Positions 14,298 through 36,750 of a DNA stretch of 44,987 nucleotides are shown piece by piece (the stretch's first letter is position 1; each line of letters opens with the position of its first letter). This DNA is from a virus: IMG/VR virus record IMGVR_UViG_3300031521_000017. One strand, written 5' to 3'. The notes below the pieces were generated by a model, which saw only the letters and a list, made by a program, of their open reading frames with translations, was not told the DNA's origin and did no database searches. Made by a program: the position numbers and the translations under genes.

Positions 14298-15371
14298 CTA
14301 CTTCTTTTTAGTATTGCGGCAACTTTTACATACTGAGTAGAAACCATCCTTGGAAGTCTTGTTTTTTGAGAAGAATGTGTTGTGAGCTAGTTTGATCTGG
14401 CCGCATCTACTACATTTCTTCCACTTAGCTTTTTCTTCCATTGTGAAATGATAAATTAACCATTCTTCCTGAGCTTTGTTTGCTATTAATTTAGGTATCT
14501 TATTGCGCCATAGAGAGGATAAATACTCAAGAGAGTGTTTAATACCAAAATCCGCATCTAACTTCTCTTGTATTTCTAAATTGGTATCTCCATCAATTTT
14601 ATATACCAAGAGATCAAACAAGAGAGGATGTTTTTCATATAGGGTCCGCATTATTAAATCATCTAAGTCCATTAATAAGAAATGCATATCGTACCCTAAG
14701 TCTTCCCATACCTCTTGCTTCAAAGCGGAGTAATGACACAATAGAGCTTCGACATGCGCGGGATTGTATAGATTTACATATCCTGTGCTGCGGACCTCTT
14801 GGTTATCATTAAGATAGACTGTTTCTGGTAACTCTGTCTTGGCCAAAGATTTAATTAAAGCATTCGCTTTAGCTGGTTCTTTTGCGCCATTACGGATTAC
14901 ATATTGATCCTGCCGCATTTGAATTAGGTGTTTCTTCAATAGGAAAGCTCTTTTGCCAGTCCCGATAGCCTTAGTTGCCATAGGGGCCATGATTGAGATA
15001 ACATCTACTAAAGATTTGAGTGCGGGAATAGTGTCAATTTCTTCTTGCGTGATTGGGGCTTTAGGGGAGAGAAGGGTGTTCTTATCTTCCCGCATAAGAT
15101 TATAAATTCCATCTTCTCCATTTTCTAACTTATCTACTAATGCTTCGTAGGACGTTTCCCTTTTATTCACAGTGACCATGCGGTCTTCAGTTAAAATTTT
15201 TCTTTGTCTGCGCTCTTTTTTGTCGGCTGTTAAAATGATATAGTTTGCTAATATTTCTTTATATTGCGAGGTCAAGTGTGAAGAAGGAGTATTTTCTACG
15301 ATTTGGTGTACGAGTAATGTCCGCTCTTCGGGGGATTCCAAAGAGTAATCGAGTTTGATCTGCTTTTGCAT
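14298..15371 (-). CDS. 357-aa first gene of the leftward operon, with a C-terminal Cys4 zinc ribbon (CSRCG...CKSC)
   Basis: GAAAGGAGAG ribosome-binding site; a consensus promoter lies immediately upstream. Confidence 0.5.
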   Translation of the reverse strand: MQKQIKLDYSLESPEERTLLVHQIVENTPSSHLTSQYKEILANYIILTADKKERRQRKILTEDRMVTVNKRETSYEALVDKLENGEDGIYNLMREDKNTLLSPKAPITQEEIDTIPALKSLVDVISIMAPMATKAIGTGKRAFLLKKHLIQMRQDQYVIRNGAKEPAKANALIKSLAKTELPETVYLNDNQEVRSTGYVNLYNPAHVEALLCHYSALKQEVWEDLGYDMHFLLMDLDDLIMRTLYEKHPLLFDLLVYKIDGDTNLEIQEKLDADFGIKHSLEYLSSLWRNKIPKLIANKAQEEWLIYHFTMEEKAKWKKCSRCGQIKLAHNTFFSKNKTSKDGFYSVCKSCRNTKKK

Positions 15372-16433: not shown

Positions 16434-16940
16434 ATGACTGCTACAGGACTTAGGAACATCGCGAAGGGTATCTGCTCGGTTCTTGCTTGTATCATCTACT
16501 GGACAGTGACGCACACCATCGCTTGGGAGGCTATCATCCCCGTTGTCCTCATCGCCGCAGTGCTCTACTACATGGGCGCACTCGTCCTCTACCTCGCCAC
16601 AATGGGGCAGTGCAAGAGAGAGGAGAAGGTGGAAACTTACACCGTCCCTCTCCTTGGATACCTCGGCGACCATACGTGGGCGACTCTCCGAGATGGTAAA
16701 GTAAGGGAGACACATATCTACCCCAACTCCATTACATACTCTCTCGGTGAAACAAGTGAACTCACCTACAAGAAAACACGCTATCGTCAAGTAGTAGAGG
16801 ATAACATCTTCGCACGTCTTGCACATGGAGACTCTGACCCAGAGTGGAAGGTATGGTACGAGCGCCCCACGCATATCACCTTGAGCGCCATCCCATACAA
16901 CAGAATCGTCAACAACTGCCAAGAGAGCGAGGTTAACTAA
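16434..16940 (+). CDS. 168-aa membrane protein (two N-terminal transmembrane helices plus a soluble domain)
   Basis: ORF with hydrophobic segments ICSVLACIIYWTV and IIPVVLIAAVLYYMGALVLYLA. Confidence 0.5.
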   Translation: MTATGLRNIAKGICSVLACIIYWTVTHTIAWEAIIPVVLIAAVLYYMGALVLYLATMGQCKREEKVETYTVPLLGYLGDHTWATLRDGKVRETHIYPNSITYSLGETSELTYKKTRYRQVVEDNIFARLAHGDSDPEWKVWYERPTHITLSAIPYNRIVNNCQESEVN

Positions 16941-17341: not shown

Positions 17342-17389
17342 GCAAATAGTGTGACAACTCGCTTAGACAGAAGTTGGCACACTGCTTGC

Positions 17390-17405
17390 TGGCCGCGCGC
17401 GGCCA
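17390..17405. repeat. GC palindrome TGGCCGCGCGCGGCCA followed by AAGTTTTG (module 1)
   Basis: Member of a family of 7 GC hairpins, each followed by an A3-4T3-7 tract. Confidence 0.6.
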
Positions 17406-17412
17406 AGTTTTG

Positions 17413-17441
17413 ACTATACCACGAAGGCCACCATTTGTCAA
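17413..17441 (-). promoter_or_regulatory. predicted leftward promoter (minus strand TTGACA-N17-TATAGT) firing into the palindrome
   Basis: The reverse complement of the TTGTCAAGAGGA box is a perfect -35 box; TATAGT sits 17 nt away; the same arrangement recurs in modules 2, 4 and 5. Confidence 0.45.
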
Positions 17442-17486
17442 GAGGAAAACTCGAAAAAGATTTCTTTCTTTCTTTTCCCGAAACCC

Positions 17487-17515
17487 TTGCATCCTCCCAT
17501 CCAAGGTGCTAAGAT
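17487..17515 (+). promoter_or_regulatory. island-type rightward promoter CCCGAAACCC-TTGCAT-N17-TAAGAT
   Basis: Conserved upstream CCYGAAACCC context shared by 5 other island promoters. Confidence 0.5.
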
Positions 17516-17556
17516 GTATCTACGAGGTAAGAGGAACACGAACTTAGGAGCCAGAC

Positions 17557-17670
17557 ATGAGCAAGAACACCAGCCCCGCGCACGTTGTTCTCACTGCCGA
17601 GAAGGTCATGGAGATTGACCTTAAGAACCTTCAGACGAAGATGGCTTCGCGTAAGGTGCGTGTGAAGTAA
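17557..17670 (+). CDS. 37-aa basic peptide (MSKNTSPAHVVLTAEKVMEIDLKNLQTKMASRKVRVK)
   Basis: AGGAG ribosome-binding site; lies downstream of the island promoter. Confidence 0.35.
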   Translation: MSKNTSPAHVVLTAEKVMEIDLKNLQTKMASRKVRVK

Positions 17671-17951
17671 GGAATAAGTAAGGGCCGAGCCACCAAGTCC
17701 TAAGGGCTTGACTGCCGACGGGCGGTGAGGTACTATCGACGGATGGTACCTTGTGGGGCGTGATTAGTGACCTCGGGAGCGGGAGATATGGTACCCCGCA
17801 CATTGACAAGAGGATAGTAGGAGAGAAGAGTACACCCGCGGGAGAAAAAGCCTCTCCTGTTTAAACCATTCGCAGGATAGCTAACAGCGAAAGTGAAGGG
17901 TCTGACTTCAGTGAGTGGGATTGCAACCTAATCACCCCTTCTACTATCCCC

Positions 17952-17980
17952 TTGTCAGTGTCAAAGAACTATGCTACAAT
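17952..17980 (+). promoter_or_regulatory. promoter TTGTCA-N17-TACAAT
   Basis: Shares the TGCTACAATGAACTTACAGG -10 and start region with the promoter at 23949. Confidence 0.5.
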
Positions 17981-18027
17981 GAACTTACAGGAAACGCGGT
18001 GGGAGCCGCAGACAGAAGGAGCCTGAA

Positions 18028-18171
18028 ATGTCCACAGGTCGCAAGAACAATCTGGCTGCTCGTATCAAAGCTTTCGAGAACATGGGCAAGACCAAGATGG
18101 TCGGCGGACGCGTTGTATCTGGGACTACTGACAACGGCGCTTTCCACAAGCCCGGCTCGCAGAAGAAGTAG
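18028..18171 (+). CDS. 47-aa basic protein ending FHKPGSQKK (paralog of 35195..35374)
   Basis: GAAGGAG ribosome-binding site; the C-terminal FHKPGS(Q/N)KK is shared with a second gene 17 kb away. Confidence 0.45.
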   Translation: MSTGRKNNLAARIKAFENMGKTKMVGGRVVSGTTDNGAFHKPGSQKK

Positions 18172-18178
18172 GCGTAGC

Positions 18179-18418
18179 ATGGAGCACTACTCTCGCGGTT
18201 TTGCCGATGGGCGGTACGATCGTGGTTATTATGCCCCTCCGATTTGCGCTTCTGGATTCAGACCAAACCCTTACCACCGGGCCGAGTACATTGAAGGCTA
18301 CTGGGCGGGAATTCGCGCACGTCGCGCGGCTCAGTACCGCTCCTTCTACTCCGGGTATCGCGCAGGCTACGCTGCGGGGTACTGGGCAGGACGGAGGGAC
18401 TCGTACTACTACTACTAG
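18179..18418 (+). CDS. 79-aa Tyr/Gly/Arg-rich low-complexity protein (GYRAGYAAGYWAGRRDSYYYY)
   Basis: ORF with a repetitive G-Y-R/A composition. Confidence 0.4.
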   Translation: MEHYSRGFADGRYDRGYYAPPICASGFRPNPYHRAEYIEGYWAGIRARRAAQYRSFYSGYRAGYAAGYWAGRRDSYYYY

Positions 18419-18441
18419 TACATACTCCAAGAAAAGCACCC

Positions 18442-18475
18442 AAGAGACAATCTCAGAAAGTTGAGATTGTCTCTT
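18442..18475. terminator. 14-bp perfect hairpin AAGAGACAATCTCA-GAAAGT-TGAGATTGTCTCTT
   Basis: Hairpin only; flanked by a weak U-tract on the minus strand; could terminate transcripts from either direction. Confidence 0.45.
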
Positions 18476-18485
18476 GACATTTCGA

Positions 18486-18503
18486 CGCGCCGTGGGCGGC
18501 GCG
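18486..18503. repeat. GC palindrome CGCGCCG-TGGG-CGGCGCG followed by AAAATCT (module 2)
   Basis: Palindrome family member. Confidence 0.6.
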
Positions 18504-18511
18504 AAAATCTG

Positions 18512-18540
18512 ACAGTATCATACAATCGAGTATTTGTCAA
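18512..18540 (-). promoter_or_regulatory. predicted leftward promoter (minus strand TTGACA-N17-TACTGT)
   Basis: Same geometry as modules 1, 4 and 5. Confidence 0.4.
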
Positions 18541-18584
18541 GAGGAAAACTCAAAAATTATTTAGAATTAATTTTGCCTGAAACC

Positions 18585-18613
18585 TTGCTATCTTCTATCT
18601 GGTTTGCTATGCT
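18585..18613 (+). promoter_or_regulatory. island-type promoter CCTGAAACC-TTGCTA-N17-TATGCT
   Basis: Conserved context. Confidence 0.5.
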
Positions 18614-18648
18614 TAGCCTACGAAAAGCTACTAAGAAAGGAATTGGTC

Positions 18649-19326
18649 ATGGTTACTCCTCAGAATGTGATGAGTTACTTGGACAAGTTCTGTGACAGTT
18701 TCCAGAGCCTTACCTATTCGGACTTCGATACCGCTATTCAGCCCCTCAAAGATGCAATGGCAGCAGGGGAAGTTCCTCCCTTCGAGACTGCCTTTGGATG
18801 CACTAAAGGCGTCCTTATCTTTAAAGGTTGCGACTTCGTTGTGAAGATTCCTTTTGTTGGGGTTGCCAGTAGCTATTCGAGGTATTGCAAGTATACTGGC
18901 TCGAATAGCACAAATGGTTGGGACTACTGCCAGCGAGAGGTAGAAATCTACGAAGCTGCTAAAGAAGTAGGTGTAGCCAGTTTCCTCGCTGAGACCAAGT
19001 TGGTCGGATATGTCAAAGGGCATCCCATCTATACTCAGTCTCTTGTAGCGAATATCGGCAAAGCGGGATGTTATACTAGAGGTACAACCCCCAAGGTAGA
19101 GAGGCAAGCACGCCGTCTGCAAAGAGCAAGAACAACAGGTCAAGCGCATATGTGGGAGAATCTTCTTACTGCCATGATAGACACTTGTGGATTCCGCCTC
19201 ACCCAGCGATTCATGAACTTCTGTATCGCGCAAAAAACAGGGTCAGATTGGCATGATGGTAACTTCGGTCTTATCCCTCACACCACCGCTATCGTATTCT
19301 GCGATTACACTGGATATCGCAGATAA
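18649..19326 (+). CDS. 225-aa hypothetical protein
   Basis: ORF downstream of the island promoter; ATG with AGAAAGG upstream. Confidence 0.5.
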   Translation: MVTPQNVMSYLDKFCDSFQSLTYSDFDTAIQPLKDAMAAGEVPPFETAFGCTKGVLIFKGCDFVVKIPFVGVASSYSRYCKYTGSNSTNGWDYCQREVEIYEAAKEVGVASFLAETKLVGYVKGHPIYTQSLVANIGKAGCYTRGTTPKVERQARRLQRARTTGQAHMWENLLTAMIDTCGFRLTQRFMNFCIAQKTGSDWHDGNFGLIPHTTAIVFCDYTGYRR

Positions 19327-19363
19327 CAAAAACCAGTAAAATCCTATTGGCACGGATTTTGCT

Positions 19364-19379
19364 GGCCCGCACGCGGGCC
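19364..19379. repeat. GC palindrome GGCCCGC-AC-GCGGGCC followed by AAAATTTTTTT (module 3)
   Basis: Family member; preceded by a second small hairpin AAAATCC...GGATTTT (19338-19360). Confidence 0.6.
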
Positions 19380-19464
19380 AAAATTTTTTTGTCAATACTT
19401 TAGAGTTAGATTTTTGTGGAGATTTTGTTAACTCAAGATTAATTAGAATTATTCCTAAAATCCC

Positions 19465-19493
19465 TTGTGTTGGTCAGTCCTGCATGGTAAGAT
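19465..19493 (+). promoter_or_regulatory. island-type promoter CCTAAAATCCC-TTGTGT-N17-TAAGAT
   Basis: Conserved context; followed by about 480 nt with no convincing ORF. Confidence 0.45.
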
Positions 19494-19915
19494 GGTTTTG
19501 TTGAGAGGGAAGCATCAAGGAGTTGAGAGCAAGTCCTACTGGAAAATCGGGTCGCTCTCTGAAACAAAGAGACTCGCGAGTAGGGTACTTCTAAGGCGGA
19601 CTCCTTCTCCTCTCAACACATTGAAAAGAGAATGCTTGCCAATGTGAGAACCCACTCCACTACTAGGCCCAGGGCTGCAAAACTTCCTCCTCTGCTGTCC
19701 TCCCCGAACGACGAGAAAAGGCTCACTCAGAAAATACCTCTGGTGACTTGAGGAAGTCCAAGTATGCAAGCATTCTCTTTCTAATGTACATTGACAAGAG
19801 GATAGTGTAAGGGGACAGTCTTCCTAGGGCGCGGCCGTGAGTCCCTACCTAACATCACCTAGTTTCTGGAGTCATGCCCAGAGCGAAGTTGCAGCAGAAA
19901 AAATACACTATTCTC

Positions 19916-19944
19916 TTGTCAGTGTCACACCGATGTGATACAAT
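19916..19944 (+). promoter_or_regulatory. promoter TTGTCA-N17-TACAAT
   Basis: Same TCTTGTCAGTGTCA...TACAAT form as the promoter at 17952. Confidence 0.5.
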
Positions 19945-19991
19945 AAAGGCACAGTAAAAGGGCAGGGATGCCCACAAGAAAAGGAGTCAAA

Positions 19992-20366
19992 ATGGCCGAC
20001 ACTCGCATCACCAAGAAGGACCGTTTCGCCCAGATGAAGAACATCGTTCTGGATGGCGTGTTTGTTGACGCCGAGGCAGACCTGCGGGAAGAGCTGGTCG
20101 CGTTCATCGACCACGAGGTCGAGCTGCTTGACAAGCGCGCGGGTACGAGCGGAAAGCCCACGAAGGCTCAGATTGAAAACGAGAAAATCAAGGTCAACAT
20201 CCTTGCGGCTCTCACGGGGTCTGAGGACGGTCTGAGGGCCACGGACGTTGGAGTCCTGATGGACATTCCGGTTCAGAAGGCAACGGCCCTGCTCAAGCAG
20301 ATGGTGGACGATGGAACCATCACCCGCGAGATGATCAAAAAGGTGGCAATGTTCAAGGTCGCCTAA
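19992..20366 (+). CDS. paralog A of a small K/A-rich protein family with a winged-helix-like C-terminus
   Basis: AAAGGAG ribosome-binding site; alignable by eye to 23563, 24626 and 40975 (TKKDRF... / ...GLRATDVGVLMDIPVQKATALLKQMVDDGTITREMIKKVAMFKV). Confidence 0.55.
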   Translation: MADTRITKKDRFAQMKNIVLDGVFVDAEADLREELVAFIDHEVELLDKRAGTSGKPTKAQIENEKIKVNILAALTGSEDGLRATDVGVLMDIPVQKATALLKQMVDDGTITREMIKKVAMFKVA

Positions 20367-20487
20367 CCTCTACGGTACTCTACAACGGAAGGTAGATCCA
20401 AGTACCTGCTGACAGTACGGGCAGGAGCCAGAATTTCGATTTAAGGAGGTGAGTCCACGTTCTAGACAACAAATAGATTTTAGTGTA

Positions 20488-20540
20488 GGACTCCCCACTT
20501 GGTCAAGCCTTGTGGGGAGTTTTGTTTTATTTTTTTTTCT
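20488..20540 (+). terminator. strong rho-independent terminator
   Basis: GGACTCCCCAC...GTGGGGAGTTTTGTTTTATTTTTTTTT. Confidence 0.7.
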
Positions 20541-20565
20541 AGAAAGTTGGCATGAAATTTGCTGG

Positions 20566-20583
20566 CGCGCCGCCCACGGCGCG
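20566..20583. repeat. GC palindrome CGCGCCG-CCCA-CGGCGCG followed by AAATTTTT (module 4)
   Basis: Family member. Confidence 0.6.
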
Positions 20584-20591
20584 AAATTTTT

Positions 20592-20620
20592 ACTATAACA
20601 CACCAGGCCAACTTTGTCAA
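20592..20620 (-). promoter_or_regulatory. predicted leftward promoter (minus strand TTGACA-N17-TATAGT)
   Basis: Nearly identical to module 5 (TTGACAAAGTTGGCCTGGTGTGTTATAGTAAAAATTTCGC versus TTGACAAAAGTGGCTCAGTGTGTTACTGTAAAAATTTCGGC). Confidence 0.5.
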
Positions 20621-20665
20621 GAGAAAAACCAGAATTATTTTTCTTTTTTTCTTCTCCTGAAACCC

Positions 20666-20694
20666 TTGTCGCCTTGCCGCACCTGTGGTACAAT
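20666..20694 (+). promoter_or_regulatory. island-type promoter CCTGAAACCC-TTGTCG-N17-TACAAT
   Basis: Conserved context. Confidence 0.5.
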
Positions 20695-20728
20695 CAACAG
20701 ACAACAGACCACAACAGAAAGCGAAACA

Positions 20729-20998
20729 ATGGCAACCGGAACGAACAACATTACAGAACTGCCCATGTCCGAAGATTCCAAAATGTGGAACTTCGTTGGG
20801 TACACTGTCCTATTCTTCATCATGGCAGGCCAAGCACTTTCCGCAGTTAATGTCCTGTGGGGTTCGCTTGCGTATCTTGTGTGCAACGTGCTTGCTATTT
20901 GGCGCACATTCTCACTACGTCGCCCAATGGCAGACAAGGTGCGGGACGTTATGTGTTTTGGAGTAACGTCCACAATTCTCATTACGAAATTTCTCTAG
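20729..20998 (+). CDS. 89-aa small membrane protein (2 transmembrane helices)
   Basis: ATG downstream of the promoter; hydrophobic stretches FVGYTVLFFIMAGQALSAV and LAYLVCNVLAIW. Confidence 0.45.
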   Translation: MATGTNNITELPMSEDSKMWNFVGYTVLFFIMAGQALSAVNVLWGSLAYLVCNVLAIWRTFSLRRPMADKVRDVMCFGVTSTILITKFL

Positions 20999-21005
20999 AA
21001 TCTTC

Positions 21006-21034
21006 TTGACCTCCTCGCGCAAGCCTGTTACACT
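21006..21034 (+). promoter_or_regulatory. promoter TTGACC-N17-TACACT
   Basis: Shares its -10 and start context TACACTAGACC with the promoter at 21973. Confidence 0.45.
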
Positions 21035-21068
21035 AGACCAGTCAAAGAAACCAACCGAAAGGTCCATC

Positions 21069-21806
21069 ATGGCTCGCAAGTCTCCCGCTCTCGCACTTGT
21101 GGTAGATGTCGAAACCTGCGGAGGTTTTGGCTCTCCTCATGTGTACGACCTTGGATTTGCGGTGGTCAATCCTAAGACTGCCGAGATTGTCGAATCGCAT
21201 TCCCTCCTCATTCCTGAAGTGTTCTACGGAATGTCTAAGGAGATGAATACCTGCTACTATGTGGAGAAGCTGCCGCAGTATATCGCGGGTATCGAGGAGG
21301 GTTCTTGGACAGTCACGCCGTTCTGGACTGCTTGGAACCTCGTGCGAAACACGATGCGAAAGTATGGTATCCGCAAGGTGTATGCCTATAACTGTGGCTT
21401 CGACCGTGGCGCACTTGACAGTACCATTAAGGCGATGACGTGCAACAAGTGGTCGCACTTCTTCCCCAAGGGTACAGAGTATTGCGACATTTGGCATATG
21501 GCTTGCCAGACCATCATGAGCCAGCGAAACTTCGTTAAGTTTTGCAACCGTCATGGGTATGTCTCGGATGCGGGAAATATCCGAACGTCTGCGGAGGTGT
21601 GCTACGCTTACATTACCAGACAGCCACACTTCGAGGAGTCACATACGGGGCTGGAAGATGTTCTCATCGAAGCTGCCATTCTCGCGCATGTTCTTCGCAC
21701 CAAGCGCGGCAAGGTGGACGAAAGTCTGACCGCTATGCCGTGGAAGATTCCGCAAGTTGTGCGGAAGGAGATGCAGAGAGCGCAAGGAATGTCAACCCTG
21801 TTCTAA
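21069..21806 (+). CDS. DEDDh-family 3'-5' exonuclease (DnaQ / RNase T / oligoribonuclease-like fold)
   Basis: Exo I motif LVVDVETCG, Exo II motif YAYNCGFDRGAL, Exo III motif H-x4-D (SHTGLEDVLIEAAIL); about 245 aa. Confidence 0.6.
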   Translation: MARKSPALALVVDVETCGGFGSPHVYDLGFAVVNPKTAEIVESHSLLIPEVFYGMSKEMNTCYYVEKLPQYIAGIEEGSWTVTPFWTAWNLVRNTMRKYGIRKVYAYNCGFDRGALDSTIKAMTCNKWSHFFPKGTEYCDIWHMACQTIMSQRNFVKFCNRHGYVSDAGNIRTSAEVCYAYITRQPHFEESHTGLEDVLIEAAILAHVLRTKRGKVDESLTAMPWKIPQVVRKEMQRAQGMSTLF

Positions 21807-21812
21807 AAAAGG

Positions 21813-21837
21813 TCTCCCGAAAGGGAGATTTTTTTTC
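21813..21837. terminator. bidirectional rho-independent terminator AAAAAA-GGTCTCCC-GAAA-GGGAGA-TTTTTTTT
   Basis: Hairpin flanked by an A-run upstream and a T-run downstream. Confidence 0.7.
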
Positions 21838-21873
21838 TCAAAAAAACACTTGACAAATCTATGGGAAAATGCG

Positions 21874-21891
21874 CGGCGCGTGGACGCGCCG
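21874..21891. repeat. GC palindrome CGGCGCG-TGGA-CGCGCCG followed by AAATTTTT (module 5)
   Basis: Family member. Confidence 0.6.
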
Positions 21892-21899
21892 AAATTTTT

Positions 21900-21928
21900 A
21901 CAGTAACACACTGAGCCACTTTTGTCAA
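21900..21928 (-). promoter_or_regulatory. predicted leftward promoter (minus strand TTGACA-N17-TACTGT); its transcript would run through the palindrome into the bidirectional terminator (about 90-nt RNA)
   Basis: Geometry as in modules 1, 2 and 4; a terminator lies 60-90 nt downstream on the minus strand. Confidence 0.45.
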
Positions 21929-21972
21929 GCAAAATCCGCAGAAAAGAAATCTTTTTTTTTTGCCCAAAACCC

Positions 21973-22001
21973 TTGCTATTGTCAACTAGTCAGCGTACAC
22001 T
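21973..22001 (+). promoter_or_regulatory. island-type promoter CCCAAAACCC-TTGCTA-N17-TACACT
   Basis: Conserved context. Confidence 0.5.
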
Positions 22002-22041
22002 AGACCTACAAGAGAACAACCCGTCAACAACAGGAGTTAAC

Positions 22042-22491
22042 ATGCCGTGCAAGAAAATCTTCTTCGACCTCGATGGAACGGTCTATCCTCTGTATGACCA
22101 AGAGGGATGGTTGGACAAACTTCACGCTAGTGACCCTTCTGCTTATGCGGTCGAAGATACTATGGTCCCCTCGGAGGAACTTCTTGACGCTCTCTGCGAC
22201 CTCATGGGCGCGGGATATGAAATCGGCGTTATCTCTTGGCTCGCGCGCAACGCCTCCAAAGAATACGAGCAGGAGACACGCGAAGTCAAGAGAGCATGGA
22301 TAAAGAAGTTTCTTCCTATGGCTTCTGAAATCCATATCGTCCGATATGGCACACCCAAGCAAGGTGTTATCCGCAAGCAGCCACTGGCGATTCTCGTCGA
22401 TGACGATGCGAACGTGCGCGCGGCATGGTGTCATGGTCTTACAATCGACCCGACCAAGAATCTCATAAAGAGGTTGCGCTCGCTCATCTAG
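22042..22491 (+). CDS. HAD-superfamily phosphatase (149 aa)
   Basis: Motif I FFDLDGTV near the N-terminus; motif IV ILVDDDANV near the C-terminus; GGAG ribosome-binding site. Confidence 0.55.
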   Translation: MPCKKIFFDLDGTVYPLYDQEGWLDKLHASDPSAYAVEDTMVPSEELLDALCDLMGAGYEIGVISWLARNASKEYEQETREVKRAWIKKFLPMASEIHIVRYGTPKQGVIRKQPLAILVDDDANVRAAWCHGLTIDPTKNLIKRLRSLI

Positions 22492-22536
22492 TGTGCTATA
22501 CTCTATACAACGACAAACAAGAAAGAAGGTTCGACA

Positions 22537-22791
22537 GTGAAAACCAACGAAATCATATTCGCCGCCGATTGTTCAGAGAACATCATAAATGCTCTGGTGG
22601 CGGTGTACCAGAATTCAACATACCAAGGAGGTCAGCATGACCTCACCACTTGCCGCATATGCCATGCGGAGCAAAACTGGGGTGGTAATGGAAGGGGTTG
22701 GAACCTAACGCACAAACCTCTGTGGAATGGTCAGCCCTGCCCAGTCGGAACGCTGGAAACTCTTCTCCAAGAGTTTTACAAGGAGGGATAG
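22537..22791 (+). CDS. 84-aa hypothetical protein (GTG start)
   Basis: ORF; start uncertain. Confidence 0.3.
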   Translation: MKTNEIIFAADCSENIINALVAVYQNSTYQGGQHDLTTCRICHAEQNWGGNGRGWNLTHKPLWNGQPCPVGTLETLLQEFYKEG

Positions 22792-22793
22792 AG

Positions 22794-23051
22794 ATGGGCA
22801 ATCCCTGCCAACAATGCAGACTCGACAATGGTAAATGCTCCTACTGGGACGAAGACAACCCCGATAACAACTTCTCACTCTCCACCGGCTATGATGAAGA
22901 TGGGGATTGTATGGCAGAAGATGCTGACTTCCCCGGCGACATATGCGAGAATTACCAAGCTGACCTCGCGGGAGACTACTGCGACCGCTGCGGCAATTAT
23001 CTCGGGAGTGAAGATGACGACGAAGAAAGCGAGTGTATCTGCAATGATTGA
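22794..23051 (+). CDS. 85-aa highly acidic Cys-rich protein (MGNPCQQCRLDNGKCSYWDEDNPDNN...DDDEESECICND)
   Basis: AAGGAGGGATAGAG ribosome-binding site; about 30% D/E; CxxC pairs. Confidence 0.45.
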   Translation: MGNPCQQCRLDNGKCSYWDEDNPDNNFSLSTGYDEDGDCMAEDADFPGDICENYQADLAGDYCDRCGNYLGSEDDDEESECICND

Positions 23052-23319
23052 TGTCGCTTGCGCCAACTATAACGGGCGCCATCGTTCTTGTGAGTGTTTC
23101 GACCTCGCAAGTGAGGATGACATTTCCAAAATGCTCTGCGACCACTTGGGAACTTGTGATGGATGGGGGAGTGAAACCTCCTGCATTAACTTCAAAGAGG
23201 CCGAAAGTTACTTCGAAAAAGATGAAGATGATGAATGCGATGGGAACTGTCCTTGCATCGACCTTTGTGATGAGGGTTCTGGAATGGTTCGAGAGACAAA
23301 ATGGCCTAAGATCTTCTGA
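23044..23319 (+). CDS. 91-aa acidic Cys-rich protein 2 (MIDVACANY...DEDDECDGNCPCIDLCDEG...)
   Basis: ATGATTGATG overlap with the upstream gene; acidic and cysteine-rich. Confidence 0.45.
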   Translation: MIDVACANYNGRHRSCECFDLASEDDISKMLCDHLGTCDGWGSETSCINFKEAESYFEKDEDDECDGNCPCIDLCDEGSGMVRETKWPKIF

Positions 23320-23351
23320 AATGCATCAATTTCATGTAATTATGCATGAAA

Positions 23352-23371
23352 TTGGCCCGCGTGCGGGCCAA
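23352..23371. repeat. GC palindrome TTGGCCCGC-GT-GCGGGCCAA followed by AATTT (module 6)
   Basis: Family member. Confidence 0.6.
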
Positions 23372-23477
23372 AATTTCAAATATCGTGCCAAAACCACCTT
23401 TTTTCGCCCAAAACAGCGAAAAATCTTGATTAATCTTCATTTCCCGAAATTAATTTAAGTTTATTTGCTATTTGGGG

Positions 23478-23506
23478 TTGTTTCTGCCGCAGAATAATGC
23501 TACAAT
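23478..23506 (+). promoter_or_regulatory. promoter TTGTTT-N17-TACAAT with an upstream CCCGAAA element
   Basis: Conserved -10 TGCTACAATGG. Confidence 0.4.
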
Positions 23507-23562
23507 GGTTTTGTTGAGAAAGAAGGAAGTGAGGCGGGAGCCTCCAAACGAAAGGCGTGACC

Positions 23563-23916
23563 ATGAACAAGAAGATGACCAAGCGCGAGATGTTCACCGC
23601 TGCTATCGCAATTGTTGCGGCTGCGAATGTCCCCGGAACCCCTGCTGTGGTGGAGGGTTTGAAGCACGAGCTGGAGTTGCTCAACAAGAAGTCCGCAGAT
23701 GGCAAGGGCAGCGCCAAGCACGCTGCCGAGGTTCGTGCCAACATGGACAAGGTTGTGACTGTCCTGTCTGATGAGGGCATCCGCGCCGCAGATGTTGGAA
23801 CTCTCGCAGACTTCTCGATTCAGAGGACTACGGCCCTCCTGAAGAAGCTTGTGGACAGCGGCGAGGTTGTCAGGGACGAGGTTAAGAAGGTAGCCTACTT
23901 CTCTCTCGCGGAGTAA
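23563..23916 (+). CDS. paralog B of the K/A-rich winged-helix-like family
   Basis: Alignable to 19992 (MNKKMTKREMF... / ...GIRAADVGTLADFSIQRTTALLKKLVDSGEVVRDEVKKVAYFSL). Confidence 0.55.
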   Translation: MNKKMTKREMFTAAIAIVAAANVPGTPAVVEGLKHELELLNKKSADGKGSAKHAAEVRANMDKVVTVLSDEGIRAADVGTLADFSIQRTTALLKKLVDSGEVVRDEVKKVAYFSLAE

Positions 23917-23948
23917 GCAAAAAGGGGAGAGAAATCTCCCCCAATCGC

Positions 23949-23977
23949 TTGTCCTAGTCGTGCCAATGTGCTACAAT
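23949..23977 (+). promoter_or_regulatory. promoter TTGTCC-N17-TACAAT
   Basis: Shares 20 nt (TGCTACAATGAACTTACARG) with the promoter at 17952. Confidence 0.5.
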
Positions 23978-24027
23978 GAACTTACAAGAAACAACGAACG
24001 CCCTACGGGGCAAGAAGGAGAGTTAGC

Positions 24028-24273
24028 ATGGAGTTTACTGTTATTGACACTTATGACTGCGAAACATCGCGTTTCGACACGTTGGACGCCGCGAGAGCGT
24101 ATGCTAAATCAGTCGCAGAGTGGCTGGTCGAGAGAGAGTATTTCGGTGAAACAGTCACAATCTCTATGATTGTTCCTTTTGAGGCTTGTGAAACTATCAG
24201 GCCGACGCCGGCTCCACCGATTGAGTTCTGCACTTGTCAGACAGTAGTGGTTACCACGACTGTCTGCGGATAG
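24028..24273 (+). CDS. 81-aa hypothetical protein
   Basis: GAAGGAGAG ribosome-binding site. Confidence 0.4.
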   Translation: MEFTVIDTYDCETSRFDTLDAARAYAKSVAEWLVEREYFGETVTISMIVPFEACETIRPTPAPPIEFCTCQTVVVTTTVCG

Positions 24274-24383
24274 CGAGTCCTACCCTACATTTAAATAAAT
24301 GGTTAACAGGTAGCTGCTGTTATTAAATGTCAGTTGTAAAACTCAGCCCCGCAGTCTCACCCTGAGGTTGAGGGTGAGATTTG

Positions 24384-24403
24384 TTGGCTCGCAAGCGAGC
24401 CAA
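24384..24403. repeat. palindrome TTGGCTCGC-AA-GCGAGCCAA followed by AATTTGACAG (module 7); preceded by the hairpin TCTCACCCT-GAGGTTG-AGGGTGAGA (24355-24379)
   Basis: Family member. Confidence 0.55.
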
Positions 24404-24524
24404 AATTTGACAGAAAACATCCTATAGGCATTTTTTGCCTTACCTCGTGACCCTTCTATATAGACTATAAAATTCCCAATATAGACCCCATAAGCCTTAT
24501 ATCGCCTAGCTCAAAAGATTTCTA

Positions 24525-24553
24525 TTGACACTTTTTTTGAAATGTGTTATAAT
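24525..24553 (+). promoter_or_regulatory. consensus sigma-A promoter TTGACA-N17(TGTGT)-TATAAT with an AAAAGATTT UP-like element
   Basis: One of three near-identical promoters (24525, 25181, 25912). Confidence 0.6.
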
Positions 24554-24625: not shown

Positions 24626-25000
24626 GTGACGAAGGTTACGAAGCGCAACCAGTTTGTTGCTGTCCAGGAGATCCTGACTGGTCTCGGCGAGACGGATCGA
24701 GCAGACTTCATCGGTGCTCAGATTGCTCTTATCGACAAGCGCAAGACTGCAGACCGCAAGCCCACGAAGGCTCAGGAGGCTAATGCTGAGATCAAGGAGA
24801 GTATTGTCGAGACTCTCATTGGCTTTGATGGTCTGACTGCGACTGAGGTTGCAGGTACCGAGGACATCTCAGTCCAGAAGGCCAGCCAGCTGCTTACGCA
24901 GCTTGTGGCTGCGGAGATTGTTATCCGCGTCGAGGGCAAGGGCAAGGAGAAGACTAAGTTCAGCCTCGCTAATCGTGCGGAGGTTGACGCCGCAGAGTAA
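24626..25000 (+). CDS. paralog C of the K/A-rich winged-helix-like family (GTG start; an alternative GTG lies at 24587)
   Basis: With GTG at 24626 the N-terminus MTKVTKRNQF aligns with paralogs A, B and D; C-terminal part ...GLTATEVAGTEDISVQKASQLLTQLVAAEIVIRVEGKGKEKTKFSL. Confidence 0.5.
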   Translation: MTKVTKRNQFVAVQEILTGLGETDRADFIGAQIALIDKRKTADRKPTKAQEANAEIKESIVETLIGFDGLTATEVAGTEDISVQKASQLLTQLVAAEIVIRVEGKGKEKTKFSLANRAEVDAAE

Positions 25001-26372: not shown

Positions 26373-27357
26373 CCATCAACGTCCTCTCCTATAGACCTGA
26401 GACGAAAAGGGTTTAGATTATGGAGGTTAAGGAAAGCTGATGTTTCCCCGGGAAGGATCATCAAGAGTCCCAAGTAACTTGACAGGCTTGGCTTTGAAGT
26501 GCGGTCCTTGAATCCGCACACTCTTGAGAGAAAAGGTGCGCGAAGAGTAAACTGCGTTGAATGTGGCTCACAGTCTGGCTGCAGCCTATGGGCATGGTAG
26601 GGTAGCGCCTTCACCGGTTAAGAAAAAACGCATCCTGATCGCTGGCCAAATGGGAGGCCCGCAGGATATAGTATTAAAGGTGCGCGATAGGCTTTCAGCG
26701 TTAAATGTGGGAAGTCAGGTCCACCCGCAGCCTACGGACTGATCTACCCGTTAAAGTGGATCTTGTGAGTGAATCTCCATTATAAAGAGTTGGGATACTA
26801 ATTATGGACCCAGCAACCGCCAGTAAGCTTGGGATAGGGATGAAGAATCAGGCCCCAATGCGGTTTGGACGCGTGAGCAGCAGCGAATAGCCATATATTG
26901 AGCCTTGGCTGCCACCTATTAGTGCGAAAAGGGAACTCTAAGTGAGTCAATTAGCCTACGACTTTAAATGCGGCTCAGTTACTGCTTGAGGAATAGCTAC
27001 CTCAGGAAAGCACAGCTTCGTTCCCCTGACTTTTAGCTTAAGATAGAAGCCTAGCACAAACTCAGGTTCCGCAAAGAGTAGAAAAGGTCGGAAAACATAT
27101 CTTATTGGGTGCTTCCTTCGAGATCCTGATGATAAAAATGAAGGGATCGAAGGACTATATCCCGCAGCTTGGTAGTGGTAGTGGTGTATGGTGCATACTA
27201 TAAACGAGGTGTGAGGTTCGAATCGTCCCTATGACAACGACCACCTGTCTTCGAAGCAGGTGGTCTAGCTACGATTATACCACAAAACCTGCACAATGTC
27301 AAGTTTTTTCTTCGACTTTAGTTATTGAATCTTTTTTTCTAAAATTCCCGAAATAAC
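26373..27357 (+). ncRNA. candidate large structured non-coding RNA (about 1 kb ORF-free, GC-balanced, internally repetitive, ending at a strong terminator)
   Basis: No ORF of at least 60 aa in frame with any signal. Internal repeat AAGGTGCGCGA...GCGTTRAATGTGG...CYGCAGCCTAYGG occurs twice, with a third partial copy. Many local hairpins, for example GTGCGG-TCCTTGAAT-CCGCAC and GACCACCTGTCTTCGAAGCAGGTGGTC. A tRNA T-loop-like GGTTCGAATC is present at 27207. Strand is inferred from the downstream terminator. Confidence 0.3.
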
Positions 27358-35674: not shown

Positions 35675-36205
35675 ATGGATACAAAAGGCGTGTATATTGG
35701 GAGATTTAATCCAATACACGTTGGACACGGGCGGGTAGTCCGGACCATGCTCAATGAGTGTGGGTTAAAAAATTCAGTGATTGTAATAGGTTCGAGTAAC
35801 GCAGAGTTTTCTGCTCGAAACATTTTCAATTACTTGGACCGGACCTCTTTTATTAAAAAGCTATTCCCAAATTCCAACGTGATAGGATTGCCTGATTTCC
35901 CAGACTCGAACGAAGCCTGGCTCGCTAATCTGGATTCTATTTTGGAGTTTGGGAATTTTCATATTCAAGACACTATGCTATATACTGGAGACGCCAATGA
36001 TCTTCAAGCGCAACTATTCACACAGGCAAATCGCCCCATTAGGATAGTAGAGAGAGAAGAAATGCCAGGAGTTTCTGGGACAAACGTCCGCGAAGCATTG
36101 CTGAATAAACAATGGGATTTAGCAGCTTCTATGCTTGACCCCATAGTCGCAAATGATATTATTAAGGAGAGTAAATGCAATCTGAATATAAACGGACTCT
36201 GTTAA
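35675..36205 (+). CDS. nicotinamide/nicotinate mononucleotide adenylyltransferase (NadM-type NMNAT)
   Basis: (H/T)xGH nucleotidyltransferase motif GRFNPIHVGH at the N-terminus; about 176 aa; adjacent to the NAMPT and Nudix genes. Confidence 0.6.
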   Translation: MDTKGVYIGRFNPIHVGHGRVVRTMLNECGLKNSVIVIGSSNAEFSARNIFNYLDRTSFIKKLFPNSNVIGLPDFPDSNEAWLANLDSILEFGNFHIQDTMLYTGDANDLQAQLFTQANRPIRIVEREEMPGVSGTNVREALLNKQWDLAASMLDPIVANDIIKESKCNLNINGLC

Positions 36206-36750
36206 AAGAAACTCCTTTTCTGCACTTAAATGAGGTTGAATACTTCGACCATGAGGGTGTATTAAAGAAATGGTACGGAGTTAGTAGAAAAAACAGCACT
36301 CCTGCAGTGCAAGTGGCAGCGATCACAGAAGAGAACGAACTTGTTCTTGTCACTCAGTATCGTCCCTATATTGATAGTATGACTATTGAATTGCCTGCGG
36401 GATTAATGGATGTGCCGGGTGAGTCTGTAATTGATTGTGCGGAGCGCGAATTGCTCGAAGAGACTGGATTCCAAGGAGATGGTAATACATTACATGCTCT
36501 TGGAGGCGAGCGTGGACTTACAGTTTCAGCCGGACTTACAGATGAGCGTATTCATCTTGTTATTGTTACTGGGTGTGTAAAAGTTGCAGATCCATATACA
36601 AATGAAGGAACCCATCCTTTTCTTGTCCCTTTACGGGATGCAGAGGAAATTCTGTATCCTTTCACTTCAACAGGGAAGAAATTCAATATCAGTTTTGGCC
36701 TATTTGGCACCTTGTATATAATTCGAAACTACCTTAATGGAGGGCTATAA
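36175..36750 (+). CDS. Nudix hydrolase (ADP-ribose pyrophosphatase-like)
   Basis: Nudix box GLMDVPGESVIDCAERELLEETG; overlaps the NMNAT gene by 31 nt. Confidence 0.6.
   Translation: MQSEYKRTLLKETPFLHLNEVEYFDHEGVLKKWYGVSRKNSTPAVQVAAITEENELVLVTQYRPYIDSMTIELPAGLMDVPGESVIDCAERELLEETGFQGDGNTLHALGGERGLTVSAGLTDERIHLVIVTGCVKVADPYTNEGTHPFLVPLRDAEEILYPFTSTGKKFNISFGLFGTLYIIRNYLNGGL

What the first reader, a model, noticed from the sequence alone, without database searches (positions are those of the whole stretch)
17384..24410. Tandem array of divergent-promoter modules: GC palindrome + AAATTT + opposing TTGACA promoters
Seven GC-rich palindromes (17390, 18486, 19364, 20566, 21874, 23352, 24384) share the form YGGCNCGC-loop-GCGNGCCR but differ in sequence, showing stem covariation. 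Each is followed by an A3-4T3-7 tract. In modules 1, 2, 4 and 5 the downstream TTGTCAAGAG box is the reverse complement of a perfect TTGACA -35. Exactly 17 nt away on the minus strand sits TATAGT or TACTGT. This predicts a leftward promoter whose transcript starts in the AAATTT tract and begins with the GC hairpin. About 55 nt to the right lies the rightward island promoter. Modules 4 and 5 are 36 of 40 identical across the leftward promoter. A bidirectional terminator 60-90 nt downstream of the leftward start (21813-21837; a weaker one at 18442-18475) would give hairpin-headed small RNAs of 65-100 nt.
Basis: partly seen in the sequence, partly recalled or inferred. Interest (0 to 1): 0.8.

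Follow-up and report, generated by a model that had tools for sequence, protein, structure and literature searches.

The report
Repeated hairpin-plus-promoter cassettes in a phage
Seven intergenic cassettes (GC hairpin, AAATTT, promoters) separate independently transcribed genes in a GC-rich island of a large uncultured phage of Firmicutes type. In four of them a conserved backward-facing promoter fires straight into the hairpin, a layout also found in many related phages but with no assigned function.

Summary
Seven GC hairpins sit at the stated coordinates, all with the A/T tail on the + strand (6 by a strict rule against 0.003 expected). Modules 1, 2, 4 and 5 carry a leftward TTGACA-17-TA..GT promoter with an extended -10, 7-8 nt from the hairpin and 51-52 nt from the rightward -35.

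The leftward -35, -10 and spacing are conserved in relatives while the spacer varies. Across 97 related loci, a GC hairpin lies at the start site of 27/113 leftward consensus promoters against 7/709 rightward ones.

- The cassettes resemble the composite terminator/promoter motifs (PeSLs) of T4-type phages, and recombination breakpoints fall at their edges.
- The stretch between AAATTT and the rightward promoter is a swappable slot. It holds either the leftward promoter or a sigma-54-type -24/-12 box (39 found, 0.5 expected). Perfect boxes also precede hairpins 1, 3 and 4 in the window.
- Only modules 2 and 5 have a leftward terminator giving RNAs of about 75-90 nt. Modules 1 and 4 would make antisense RNA.

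No transcript data exist, so function remains inferred. Verdict: a new variant of a known kind.

The parts
17375..17390 (+). M1 sigma-54-type -24/-12 box TGGCACACTGCTTGCT, abutting the hairpin
   Evidence: one of only three intergenic matches in the window
17390..17405 (.). M1 GC hairpin TGGCCGCGCGCGGCCA, tail AGTTTT
   Evidence: -9.5 kcal/mol
17413..17441 (-). M1 leftward promoter TTGACA-17-TATAGT with TGn
   Evidence: (11/12)
17487..17515 (+). M1 rightward promoter TTGCAT-17-TAAGAT, before the 37-aa gene at 17557
18440..18476 (.). M2 long hairpin (16 bp). The U-tract is better on the - strand, so it is the likely terminator of the leftward RNA
18486..18503 (.). M2 GC hairpin CGCGCCGTGGGCGGCGCG, tail AAAATCT
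18512..18540 (-). M2 leftward promoter TTGACA-17-TACTGT
18585..18613 (+). M2 rightward promoter TTGCTA-17-TATGCT, before the 225-aa gene
19348..19363 (+). M3 sigma-54-type box TGGCACGGATTTTGCT
19363..19380 (.). M3 GC hairpin plus A4T7. It is the only terminator candidate for gene 18649-19326
19465..19493 (+). M3 rightward promoter TTGTGT-17-TAAGAT. It leads into a 430-nt structured leader
20491..20519 (+). M4 canonical terminator hairpin followed by a T-run
20548..20563 (+). M4 sigma-54-type box TGGCATGAAATTTGCT
20566..20583 (.). M4 GC hairpin CGCGCCGCCCACGGCGCG plus A3T5
20592..20620 (-). M4 leftward promoter TTGACA-17-TATAGT with TGn
   Evidence: (11/12)
20666..20694 (+). M4 rightward promoter TTGTCG-17-TACAAT
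21813..21828 (.). M5 bidirectional terminator TCTCCCGAAAGGGAGA (T8 to the right, T6 to the left)
21874..21891 (.). M5 GC hairpin CGGCGCGTGGACGCGCCG plus A3T5
21900..21928 (-). M5 leftward promoter TTGACA-17-TACTGT
21973..22001 (+). M5 rightward promoter TTGCTA-17-TACACT
23352..23371 (.). M6 GC hairpin plus AATTT. It has no leftward sigma-A promoter. Degenerate sigma-54-like boxes lie on both sides (23380-23391 reversed)
23478..23506 (+). M6 rightward promoter TTGTTT-17-TACAAT, before winged-helix paralog 2
24355..24379 (+). M7 canonical terminator TCTCACCCT..AGGGTGAGA plus TTTGTT. It is the same type as the AACCCTC..GAGGGTT terminators of relatives
24384..24403 (.). M7 GC hairpin plus AATTT
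24525..24553 (+). M7 rightward consensus promoter TTGACA-17-TATAAT, before winged-helix paralog 3
   Evidence: 12/12
27239..27302 (-). Same design outside the finding: a perfect leftward TTGACA-17-TATAAT (27302-27274) firing into hairpin 27265-27239 at the right end of the island. It is conserved in L010

Best explanation
The seven elements are composite regulatory cassettes. They separate self-contained transcription units in the GC-rich island (about 15.4-27.4 kb, 48-52% GC) of a large, 36%-GC, SPbeta-like phage of Firmicutes type.

Each cassette contains, in order:
- often a canonical terminator;
- a 7-8 bp GC hairpin followed by AAATTT;
- a swappable slot of about 70-110 nt;
- a rightward sigma-A-type promoter with a weak -35 and an extended -10.

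Shown from sequence and comparison:
- the architecture itself;
- maintenance of the hairpin by compensatory changes;
- conservation of the leftward promoter elements and their geometry;
- exchange of the slot between near-identical phages;
- recombination breakpoints at cassette edges.

Inferred:
- The hairpin closes the upstream transcript, as terminator, attenuator or 3' protection. It is the only candidate terminator in M1, M3 and M6.
- Because the hairpin is a palindrome, it also forms the 5'-terminal hairpin of the RNA made by the leftward promoter in M1, M2, M4 and M5.
- That RNA starts 2-4 nt before the hairpin. A 5'-terminal stem-loop is a known RNA stabiliser, so the RNA should be long-lived.
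- The RNA is short (about 75-90 nt) where the upstream terminator works leftward (M2, M5). Otherwise it is antisense to the 3' part of the upstream gene (M1, M4).
- Its most likely job is local: to insulate neighbouring cassettes and damp the upstream gene through convergent transcription and antisense pairing. Divergent firing from a fixed 51-52 nt back-to-back geometry may also help the weak rightward promoter.
- The conserved cassette ends also act as linkers for homologous recombination that shuffles genes and promoter units, as PeSLs do in T4-type phages.
For: Reality of the array:
- 6 hairpins with the A/T tail on the + strand, 0 on the - strand, 0.003 expected.
- Promoter-like and terminator-like sites are about twice the shuffle expectation in the island.

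Hairpin maintained:
- 98.6% of cells paired, 5/7 pairs with changes on both sides, and slid controls at 23-45%.

Leftward promoter under selection:
- Invariant TTTGTCAAG and A..TA.CA with a free spacer in nine modules of the window, L001, L011, L014 and L016.
- Spacer of 17-18 and 5-9 nt to the hairpin.
- 51-53 nt to the rightward -35 in 9/11 modules.

Coupling of leftward promoters with a hairpin at +1 across the wider phage group:
- 27/113 against 7/709.
- Examples with unrelated hairpins in L003, L004, L051, L071, L076 and L094.
- The same slot holds a leftward sigma-54-type box in L014 (two copies) and in one module found in both L018 and L020.

5' hairpin:
- Folds of the predicted leftward RNAs.
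- 5' stem-loops as stabilisers in E. coli and B. subtilis (review PMC3997798, refs 95 and 109).

End-of-unit position:
- Every hairpin follows a stop codon or a terminator and precedes a promoter.

Cassette exchange:
- L001 against L015 and L013 have at least 98% identical flanks but a replaced slot.
- Identity steps 92% to 77% to 95% at module edges, with a 260-nt gene indel ending at a module.
- Gene order is shuffled among the window, L001, L010, L011, L014, L016 and L020.

PeSL definition and function: PMC2839356 and PMC4122927.
Against: - No transcript data of any kind. Promoter and terminator calls are consensus matches.
- The hairpin is followed by A3-4 before the T run, so it is not a canonical intrinsic terminator. 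In M2, M4, M5 and M7 a canonical terminator already precedes it, which leaves its own role unclear.
- 20 of 34 modules in the close clade have no promoter firing into the hairpin. The 5'-cap role therefore cannot be its general function.
- At orthologous positions the leftward promoter is replaced by an unrelated unit, so it is dispensable.
- Leftward RNA bodies share no sequence, and only 2 of 8 tested have a terminator.
- M1 and M4 would have a sigma-54-type promoter and the leftward promoter head to head over about 45 bp, which is hard to reconcile with both being active.
- Hairpins for the covariation count were selected as palindromes.
Confidence: 0.55

Rival explanations
1. The hairpins are only rightward terminators or attenuators. 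The leftward promoter boxes are inert relics of consensus early promoters that were inserted backwards by recombination at palindromic cassette ends.
For: - Hairpins always lie at the 3' ends of units.
- Four are scored terminator-like on the + strand.
- The family is full of consensus TTGACA-17-TATAAT early promoters that could be flipped.
- Relic half-promoters (CTTGACAAAT without a -10) do exist to the left of hairpins M2, M5, L016 and L004.
- The leftward unit is replaceable.
Against: - Perfect TTGACA, the TG motif, TA...T and the 17-18 spacing are kept in every copy while the spacers diverge. A relic would decay.
- The geometry to both neighbours is fixed.
- The enrichment is about 24-fold: 24% of leftward against 1% of rightward promoters have a hairpin at +1.
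- A leftward sigma-54-type box occupies the same slot elsewhere.
Confidence: 0.15
2. The leftward promoters make a family of discrete, hairpin-headed, trans-acting small RNAs of 65-100 nt.
For: M2 and M5 have the layout promoter, 5' hairpin, linker, terminator hairpin plus U-run on the - strand. This predicts RNAs of about 75-90 nt.
Against: - There is no leftward terminator in M1, M4, L001 D, L011, L014 or L016.
- The linker sequences of M2 and M5 are unrelated. The M5 homologue in L016 lacks the terminator.
- There are no Rfam matches.
Confidence: 0.1
3. The palindromes act as double-stranded DNA sites for a dimeric protein. Candidates are the island's winged-helix paralogs or an enhancer-binding protein serving the sigma-54-type promoters.
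For: - The palindromes are perfect, and 16 of 34 share CGCGCCG.
- They lie next to sigma-54-type boxes on either side, as position-independent enhancers can.
- The paralogs have an ArsR/MarR/AspA-like winged helix.
- In the window the TGGCYCGC class (M3, M6, M7) precedes the three paralog genes.
Against: - There are 17 different stem sequences and free loops, so no common half-site exists.
- The distance to the sigma-54-type box varies from 0 to 47 nt, too close for typical enhancers.
- The association with paralog genes fails in L001 and L010.
- Distant relatives keep the hairpin with unrelated sequence.
Confidence: 0.08
4. The hairpin plus AAATTT is mainly a DNA-level recombination or cruciform site that marks cassette junctions. 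The neighbouring promoters are passengers.
For: - The left breakpoint of the slot swap is exactly after hairpin plus AAAATT.
- Identity steps and an indel occur at module edges.
- Units occur in both orientations next to the palindrome.
- PeSL crossovers map in or next to the stem-loop (PMC2839356).
Against: - The right breakpoint is the conserved rightward promoter, not a palindrome. Ordinary homologous recombination between any conserved stretches explains the data.
- No recombinase or nuclease is linked to the sites.
- This model does not explain the specific coupling with leftward start sites.
Confidence: 0.12

Closest known systems
PeSLs (promoter-early stem-loops) of T4-type phages (PMC2839356, PMC4122927)
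   Same: - Both are short repeated intergenic cassettes that combine a GC-rich stem-loop, an AT-rich stretch and a sigma-70-type early promoter.
- Both flank small genes of unknown function in a plastic genome region.
- Both coincide with recombination breakpoints, indels and gene shuffling.
   Different: - The host and phage group differ: an SPbeta-like phage of Firmicutes type, not a T4-like myovirus.
- There is no sequence relationship.
- A second, backward-facing promoter fires into the stem-loop.
- An exchangeable slot can hold a sigma-54-type box.
- The hairpin is followed by AAATTT rather than a U-run.
- Mini-circles were not tested.
Host-takeover early gene arrays with a strong promoter and terminator per small operon, such as the SPO1 terminal redundancy (own knowledge, not checked here)
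   Same: Both are dense one-directional arrays of small genes, each with its own strong sigma-A promoter and terminator. This is seen most clearly in the distant relative L004.
   Different: This array has regular backward promoters coupled to GC hairpins, a 14-point GC excess over the rest of the genome, and sigma-54-type boxes.
Short phage antisense RNAs made from a promoter convergent with an early gene: lambda oop, P22 sar (own knowledge)
   Same: In M2 and M5 a leftward promoter downstream of a rightward gene gives a predicted 75-90 nt RNA. It ends at a terminator and overlaps the 3' end of the upstream transcript.
   Different: This design is repeated several times per genome. Most copies lack a terminator, the RNA is headed by a GC hairpin, and no target or effect is known.
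Back-to-back early/late promoters of phage phi29 (A2b/A2c and A3) switched by protein p4 (own knowledge)
   Same: A consensus promoter sits back to back with a promoter that has a poor -35, at a fixed short distance, with an A/T-tract region between them.
   Different: No regulator site is identified. Both promoters here lie in an early-type island. The leftward one has no gene to express.
Sigma-54 (-24/-12) promoters
   Same: The box TTGGCAY-R-N4-TTGCT matches the published consensus at every conserved position. It is intergenic and mostly on the gene strand.
   Different: The boxes lie in a phage, in tandem with a sigma-A promoter about 55-110 nt downstream. Some lie directly against or inside a GC palindrome. 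No activator gene or upstream activator site was found.
REP/BIME extragenic palindromes of enterobacteria (own knowledge)
   Same: Both are GC-rich palindromes repeated after genes. They are maintained as structure rather than sequence and are thought to protect 3' ends.
   Different: These are much shorter, phage-borne, tied to promoters, and have no conserved tetranucleotide head or associated transposase.

Membership tests
PeSL composite terminator/promoter cassettes | Repeated intergenic motif joining a stable GC-rich stem-loop, an AT-rich stretch and a sigma-70-type promoter before the next gene | tested here: met
   Seven copies in the window and 34 unique copies in the close clade.
PeSL composite terminator/promoter cassettes | Cassette edges coincide with insertions, deletions and replacements between close relatives | tested here: met
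   Slot swap with at least 98% identical flanks. Identity steps and a 260-nt indel at module edges. Shuffled gene order.
PeSL composite terminator/promoter cassettes | Located in hyperplastic regions of T4-like myoviruses and homologous to the PeSL consensus | tested here: not met
   The large terminase is closest to SPbeta-like phages of Firmicutes. A YonG_N domain is present. There is no DNA match to any deposited phage. This element works like a PeSL but is not a member of that family.
PeSL composite terminator/promoter cassettes | Excised mini-circles formed by recombination between neighbouring cassettes | not testable with these tools
   This needs inverse PCR or read-level data.
Sigma-A (sigma-70-type) promoter, for the leftward element | -35 TTGACA, spacer 17 +/- 1, -10 TAnnnT | tested here: met
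   TTGACA-17-TATAGT or TACTGT in M1, M2, M4 and M5.
Sigma-A (sigma-70-type) promoter, for the leftward element | Extended -10 (TGn / TRTG) typical of Gram-positive promoters | tested here: met
   GTGTGnTA..T is conserved.
Sigma-A (sigma-70-type) promoter, for the leftward element | Hexamers conserved in relatives while the spacer drifts | tested here: met
   Alignment A3. 27 further cases in the wider group.
Sigma-A (sigma-70-type) promoter, for the leftward element | A transcript starting 6-8 nt after the -10 | not testable with these tools
   No RNA data.
Intrinsic (rho-independent) terminator, for the GC hairpin | Stable GC-rich stem-loop at the end of a transcription unit | tested here: met
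Intrinsic (rho-independent) terminator, for the GC hairpin | U-run starting directly after the stem | tested here: inconclusive
   A2-4 comes first and the T run follows (profile: positions 1-2 are A, positions 4-6 are T). M1 (AGTTTT) and M3 (A4T7, with AUUUU/AAAAU able to extend the stem) are the best cases. M2 and M6 are poor.
Sigma-54 promoter, for the TGGCAY-N5-TTGC boxes | GG and GC doublets 10 nt apart within TGGCAC-N5-TTGCW | tested here: met
   38 unique instances. T at -26 in 35/38, a purine after TGGCAY in 36/38, and T after TTGC in 29/38. 39 observed against 0.5 expected.
Sigma-54 promoter, for the TGGCAY-N5-TTGC boxes | Intergenic and oriented towards a gene | tested here: met
   31/38 on the gene strand. 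All counted ones are intergenic, with the coding IWHMAC hit removed.
Sigma-54 promoter, for the TGGCAY-N5-TTGC boxes | Host sigma-54 and an enhancer-binding ATPase are available | not testable with these tools
   The host is unknown. No such gene lies in the window or in the 10 kb beyond it. Distant relatives are binned with Clostridia genomes.
Bacterial small RNA gene | Promoter and terminator bounding 50-300 nt | tested here: inconclusive
   Met in M2 and M5. Not met in M1, M4 and six relatives.
Bacterial small RNA gene | Conserved RNA body or structure beyond the ends | tested here: not met
   The bodies are unrelated between modules and relatives. No Rfam hit.

The most novel reading that the evidence does not exclude
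The GC palindrome is a shared two-way 5' cap. It is a single DNA element placed at the start site of promoters that fire into it from either side, giving both transcripts the same protective hairpin.

These promoters are sigma-A to the left, and sigma-A or sigma-54-type to the right or left. The adjacent slot is a plug-in position where phages swap regulatory units of different sigma classes. That would wire early accessory genes of a phage to host sigma-54 signalling and to antisense control.

Under this reading the convergent pair of promoters around the hairpin, seen intact in L051 and L094, is a new kind of phage regulatory device rather than a terminator with neighbours.
Probability: 0.25. 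Interest if true: 0.8.

Novelty: new variant of a known kind. Interest (0 to 1): 0.6.

Why it matters
- It would extend composite promoter/terminator cassettes that both regulate and shuffle genes from T4-type phages of Gram-negative hosts to large phages of Firmicutes. That suggests a general route to plastic accessory regions.
- The tight coupling of backward promoters with a hairpin at +1 (27/113 against 7/709) is a clear, testable signature of deliberate non-coding or antisense transcription inside early gene arrays.
- The sigma-54-type boxes, enriched about 80-fold and interchangeable with the backward promoter, would be an unusual case of a phage using the host's enhancer-dependent sigma factor. 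I know of no described example, and two literature searches found none. One search was malformed and not rerun.
- The natural allele pair, L001 against L015/L013, gives a ready-made experiment.

Tried and rejected
- Rfam at gathering and at permissive thresholds: nothing relevant.
- tRNA/tmRNA scan of the window: none.
- DNA searches of the deposited-phage collection, near and distant: no match.
- Exact-pattern scan of viral contigs for the CGCGCCG hairpin plus AAAWTT: only L001's contig and one unrelated GC-rich phage.
- Microdiversity: the four other contigs carrying the island are 100% identical, so there are no polymorphisms to read.
- Walking the 85-kb contig to look for a sigma-54 activator: the next 10 kb hold NAD-salvage genes, small genes and a tRNA array, with no further boxes.
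- Operator hypothesis for the TTGTCAAGAG box and for the palindromes: no common half-site. The association with the winged-helix genes holds in the window but fails in L001 and L010.
- Reading the leftward box as a decayed sigma-54 box (AGGCCA..TTTGTC): the spacing is inconsistent between modules, so it was dropped.
- N4-type hairpin promoters for a phage RNA polymerase: no large polymerase gene in the window, and the loops and flanks are not conserved.
- Integron attC sites: each cassette has its own promoter and there are no R/L core sites.
- The 884-nt ORF-poor stretch 26385-27268 as a structured RNA: z-scores of -0.5 (- strand) and -1.1 (+ strand), inconclusive.

Full report
**Setting**

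The window is part of a large phage of Firmicutes type.
- The large terminase is 46% identical to those of Enterococcus phage H1 and other SPbeta-like phages.
- A YonG_N domain protein, a phage sigma factor (phrog_5767, 14298-15371 on the - strand), a portal protein and NAD-salvage genes are present.
- A tRNA array follows beyond the window.
- The genome body is 30-43% GC. The stretch from about 15.4 to 27.4 kb is 44-53% GC, with all genes on the + strand.
- The same phage occurs 100% identical in several public assemblies, the longest an 85-kb contig.
- There is no DNA match to any deposited phage. Distant relatives are binned with Clostridia genomes.

**Check of the observation**

RNA hairpin energies are -9.5 to -13.8 kcal/mol.
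- By a strict rule, six hairpins with an A/T tail lie on the + strand and none on the - strand. Simulated island sequence gives 0.003.
- In M1, M2, M4 and M5 the box TTGTCAAG is the reverse of TTGACA. Exactly 17 nt away on the - strand sits TATAGT or TACTGT, preceded by TGn.
- The rightward -35 starts 51-52 nt to the right of the leftward box.
- The leftward terminator-like hairpins at 21828-21813 and 18477-18440 are there.

Small corrections:
- The stems fall into three sequence classes rather than one form.
- M1 and M2 lack a clean A3-4T3-7 tail.
- M4 and M5 share 33 of 40 positions, not 36.

**Relatives**

The 245-aa island protein and the winged-helix paralogs retrieved 97 related loci. 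A close clade has the same GC-rich island and the same cassettes. It comprises L001, L010-L021 and L090, mostly from wetland and sediment-type metagenomes.

In this clade the full cassette reads as follows:
- a canonical terminator (typically AACCCTC-loop-GAGGGTT plus T's);
- a GC hairpin;
- AAATTT;
- a slot;
- a rightward promoter of the form CCCTTGnnn-17-TAnnAT with TGG before the -10.

On 30 hairpins, 98.6% of stem cells pair and five of seven pairs show changes on both sides. Slid controls pair at 23-45%. There are 17 different stem sequences and the loops are free. What is maintained is the hairpin, not a sequence. The hairpins were selected as palindromes, which inflates the percentage paired but not the diversity.

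**The leftward promoter**

- In nine modules from five phages the only invariant blocks after the hairpin are TTTGTCAAG and A..TA.CA. These are the -35, the -10 and the TG motif read backwards. The 17-18 nt spacer differs freely.
- The -10 is 5-9 nt from the hairpin.
- The leftward -35 is 51-53 nt from the rightward -35 in 9 of 11 modules.
- The region between them is an A-run followed by a T-run.
- This is the pattern expected of a working promoter in a fixed back-to-back pair.

The same design appears in much more distant, AT-rich relatives: L003, L004, L051, L071, L076 and L094.
- There, nearly every small gene has a perfect TTGACA-17-TATAAT promoter.
- After a canonical terminator comes a GC-rich hairpin of unrelated sequence with a perfect leftward promoter firing into it. 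In L051 and L094 a perfect rightward promoter also fires into it from the other side.
- Over all loci a GC hairpin lies within 14 nt of the -10 for 27 of 113 leftward consensus promoters. The figure for rightward ones is 7 of 709.

**What the leftward RNA would be**

With a start 6-7 nt after the -10, the RNA begins 2-4 nt before the hairpin. 5'-terminal stem-loops are established RNA stabilisers (review PMC3997798).
- In M2 the next element leftward is a 16-bp hairpin whose U-run is better on the - strand.
- In M5 the next element is a truly bidirectional terminator.
- These two give RNAs of about 75-90 nt.
- In M1, M4 and the six relatives tested there is no leftward terminator, so the RNA would be antisense to the upstream gene.
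- The RNA bodies share no sequence. A family of trans-acting small RNAs is therefore not supported. Local antisense or insulating transcription fits better.

Directly before hairpins M1, M3 and M4 lie TGGCACACTGCTTGCT, TGGCACGGATTTTGCT and TGGCATGAAATTTGCT. These are the only intergenic matches to TGGYAY-N5-YTGCW in the whole window on either strand.

In the close clade the box is the commonest content of the slot.
- 20 of 34 modules read hairpin, AAATTT, then a rightward box. Eight have the leftward sigma-A promoter. A few have a leftward box in the same place.
- There are 38 unique instances, 31 on the gene strand.
- T precedes TGG in 35/38, a purine follows TGGCAY in 36/38, and the five-base spacer is free.
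- 39 were observed against 0.5 expected.
- This matches the sigma-54 consensus at every conserved position.
- Whether the host has sigma-54 and an activator cannot be tested here. No activator gene was found in the window or in the next 10 kb.

**The slot is exchangeable**

L001, L013 and L015 were compared at the same locus.
- They are at least 98% identical from the terminator through hairpin plus AAAATT, and again from the rightward -35 CCTTGTGCG into the winged-helix gene.
- Between these points L001 has the 72-nt leftward-promoter unit. L013 and L015 have a 110-nt unit with a sigma-54-type box.
- Between L015 and L013 identity steps 92% to 77% to 95% at module edges, and a 260-nt gene indel ends at a module.
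- Gene order differs among the window, L001, L010, L011, L014, L016 and L020.

This is the behaviour described for PeSLs of T4-type phages. PeSLs are composite stem-loop plus AT-rich plus early-promoter motifs that act as terminators and promoters and as recombination linkers (PMC2839356, PMC4122927).

**Role of the hairpin**

The hairpin always lies at the end of a transcription unit. It is the only terminator candidate in M1, M3 and M6. Elsewhere a canonical terminator precedes it, and A's come before the T run, so it is not a textbook terminator.

It is placed at the start site of inward-firing promoters in about a third of close-clade modules and in the distant relatives. In most close-clade modules the neighbouring promoter fires away from it.

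My reading is a dual-use RNA hairpin: 3' end of the upstream unit and 5' cap of inward-started RNAs. Its conserved flanks double as recombination linkers. A pure DNA-site role for a protein is unlikely given the many stem sequences.

**Verdict**

This is a real, conserved and unusually elaborate regulatory cassette. The divergent-promoter reading is supported for four of the seven modules. The small-RNA reading holds for two at most.

It works like a PeSL but is not a member of that family. The backward promoter coupled to a hairpin, and the swappable slot with sigma-54-type boxes, are new variations. Everything about transcription is inferred from sequence.

Noticed in passing
window 17375-17390, 19348-19363, 20548-20563; L010 (12 copies); L001 8461, 8956, 9868: Sigma-54-type -24/-12 boxes (TTGGCAY-R-N4-TTGCT) occur only in the GC-rich island and its relatives: 39 found against 0.5 expected. 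In the window they abut the hairpin on its left. In relatives they mostly follow hairpin plus AAATTT.
   Followed up: yes
window 19500-19940 (+), also 17743-17975 (+): Long non-coding leaders lie between an upstream promoter and a second promoter (TTGTCA-17-TACAAT at 19916 and 17952). They fold into one to three domains, each closed by a 15-22 bp stem such as CATTGACAAGAGGATAGT / ACTATTCTCTTGTCAGTG. The z-scores are -4.2 and -2.7. There is no Rfam match.
   Followed up: partly
window 26385-27302: An ORF-poor stretch of about 850 nt lies at the right end of the island. A perfect leftward TTGACA-17-TATAAT promoter (27302-27274) enters it through a hairpin (27265-27239). Promoter and hairpin are conserved in L010 around 16650-16720. 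Folding z-scores are not significant on either strand.
   Followed up: partly
window 14298-15371 (-): A phage-encoded sigma factor (phrog_5767, E 2e-47) with a C-terminal zinc-ribbon/HNH-like tail lies directly left of the island. It is the first gene of the leftward structural block. Its promoter specificity is unknown.
   Followed up: no
window 18555-18575, 19437-19455; L010 many modules: A recurrent box ATTAATTAGAATTAAT (two palindromic ATTAAT units) lies about 45-60 nt upstream of the rightward promoter start. It could be an UP element or a regulator site.
   Followed up: no
window 19496-19515, 23509-23530; L001 10850-10870; L014: Rightward transcripts start with a conserved purine-rich leader (GGTTTTGTTGAGAGGGAAG). 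Several have a small covarying hairpin (GAGGCGGGAGCCTC / GCGGCGGGAGCCGC) before the ribosome site. This may be a 5' stabiliser for the mRNAs.
   Followed up: no
L051 8800-8900 and 10400-10500; L094 9550-9650: In distant relatives two perfect consensus promoters face each other across about 45 bp, with a GC hairpin exactly between them. Relic left-hand -35 boxes (CTTGACAAAT without a -10) remain at window M2 and M5, at L016 and at L004 6530.
   Followed up: partly
window 19992-20366, 23563-23916, 24626-25000: Three paralogous genes of about 120 aa have a C-terminal winged helix that is weakly ArsR/MarR/AspA-like (E 2e-4). One to three copies occur in every related island.
   Followed up: partly
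window 35675-38150; L102 15500-18000: There is an NAD-salvage gene set (cytidylyltransferase-like, NUDIX, NAMPT). Beyond the window lies a 2.4-kb tRNA gene array.
   Followed up: no
window 21492-21507: One match to the sigma-54 pattern lies inside the 245-aa gene, where it encodes IWHMAC. It is conserved as protein sequence in all relatives and is a coding coincidence, not a promoter.
   Followed up: yes
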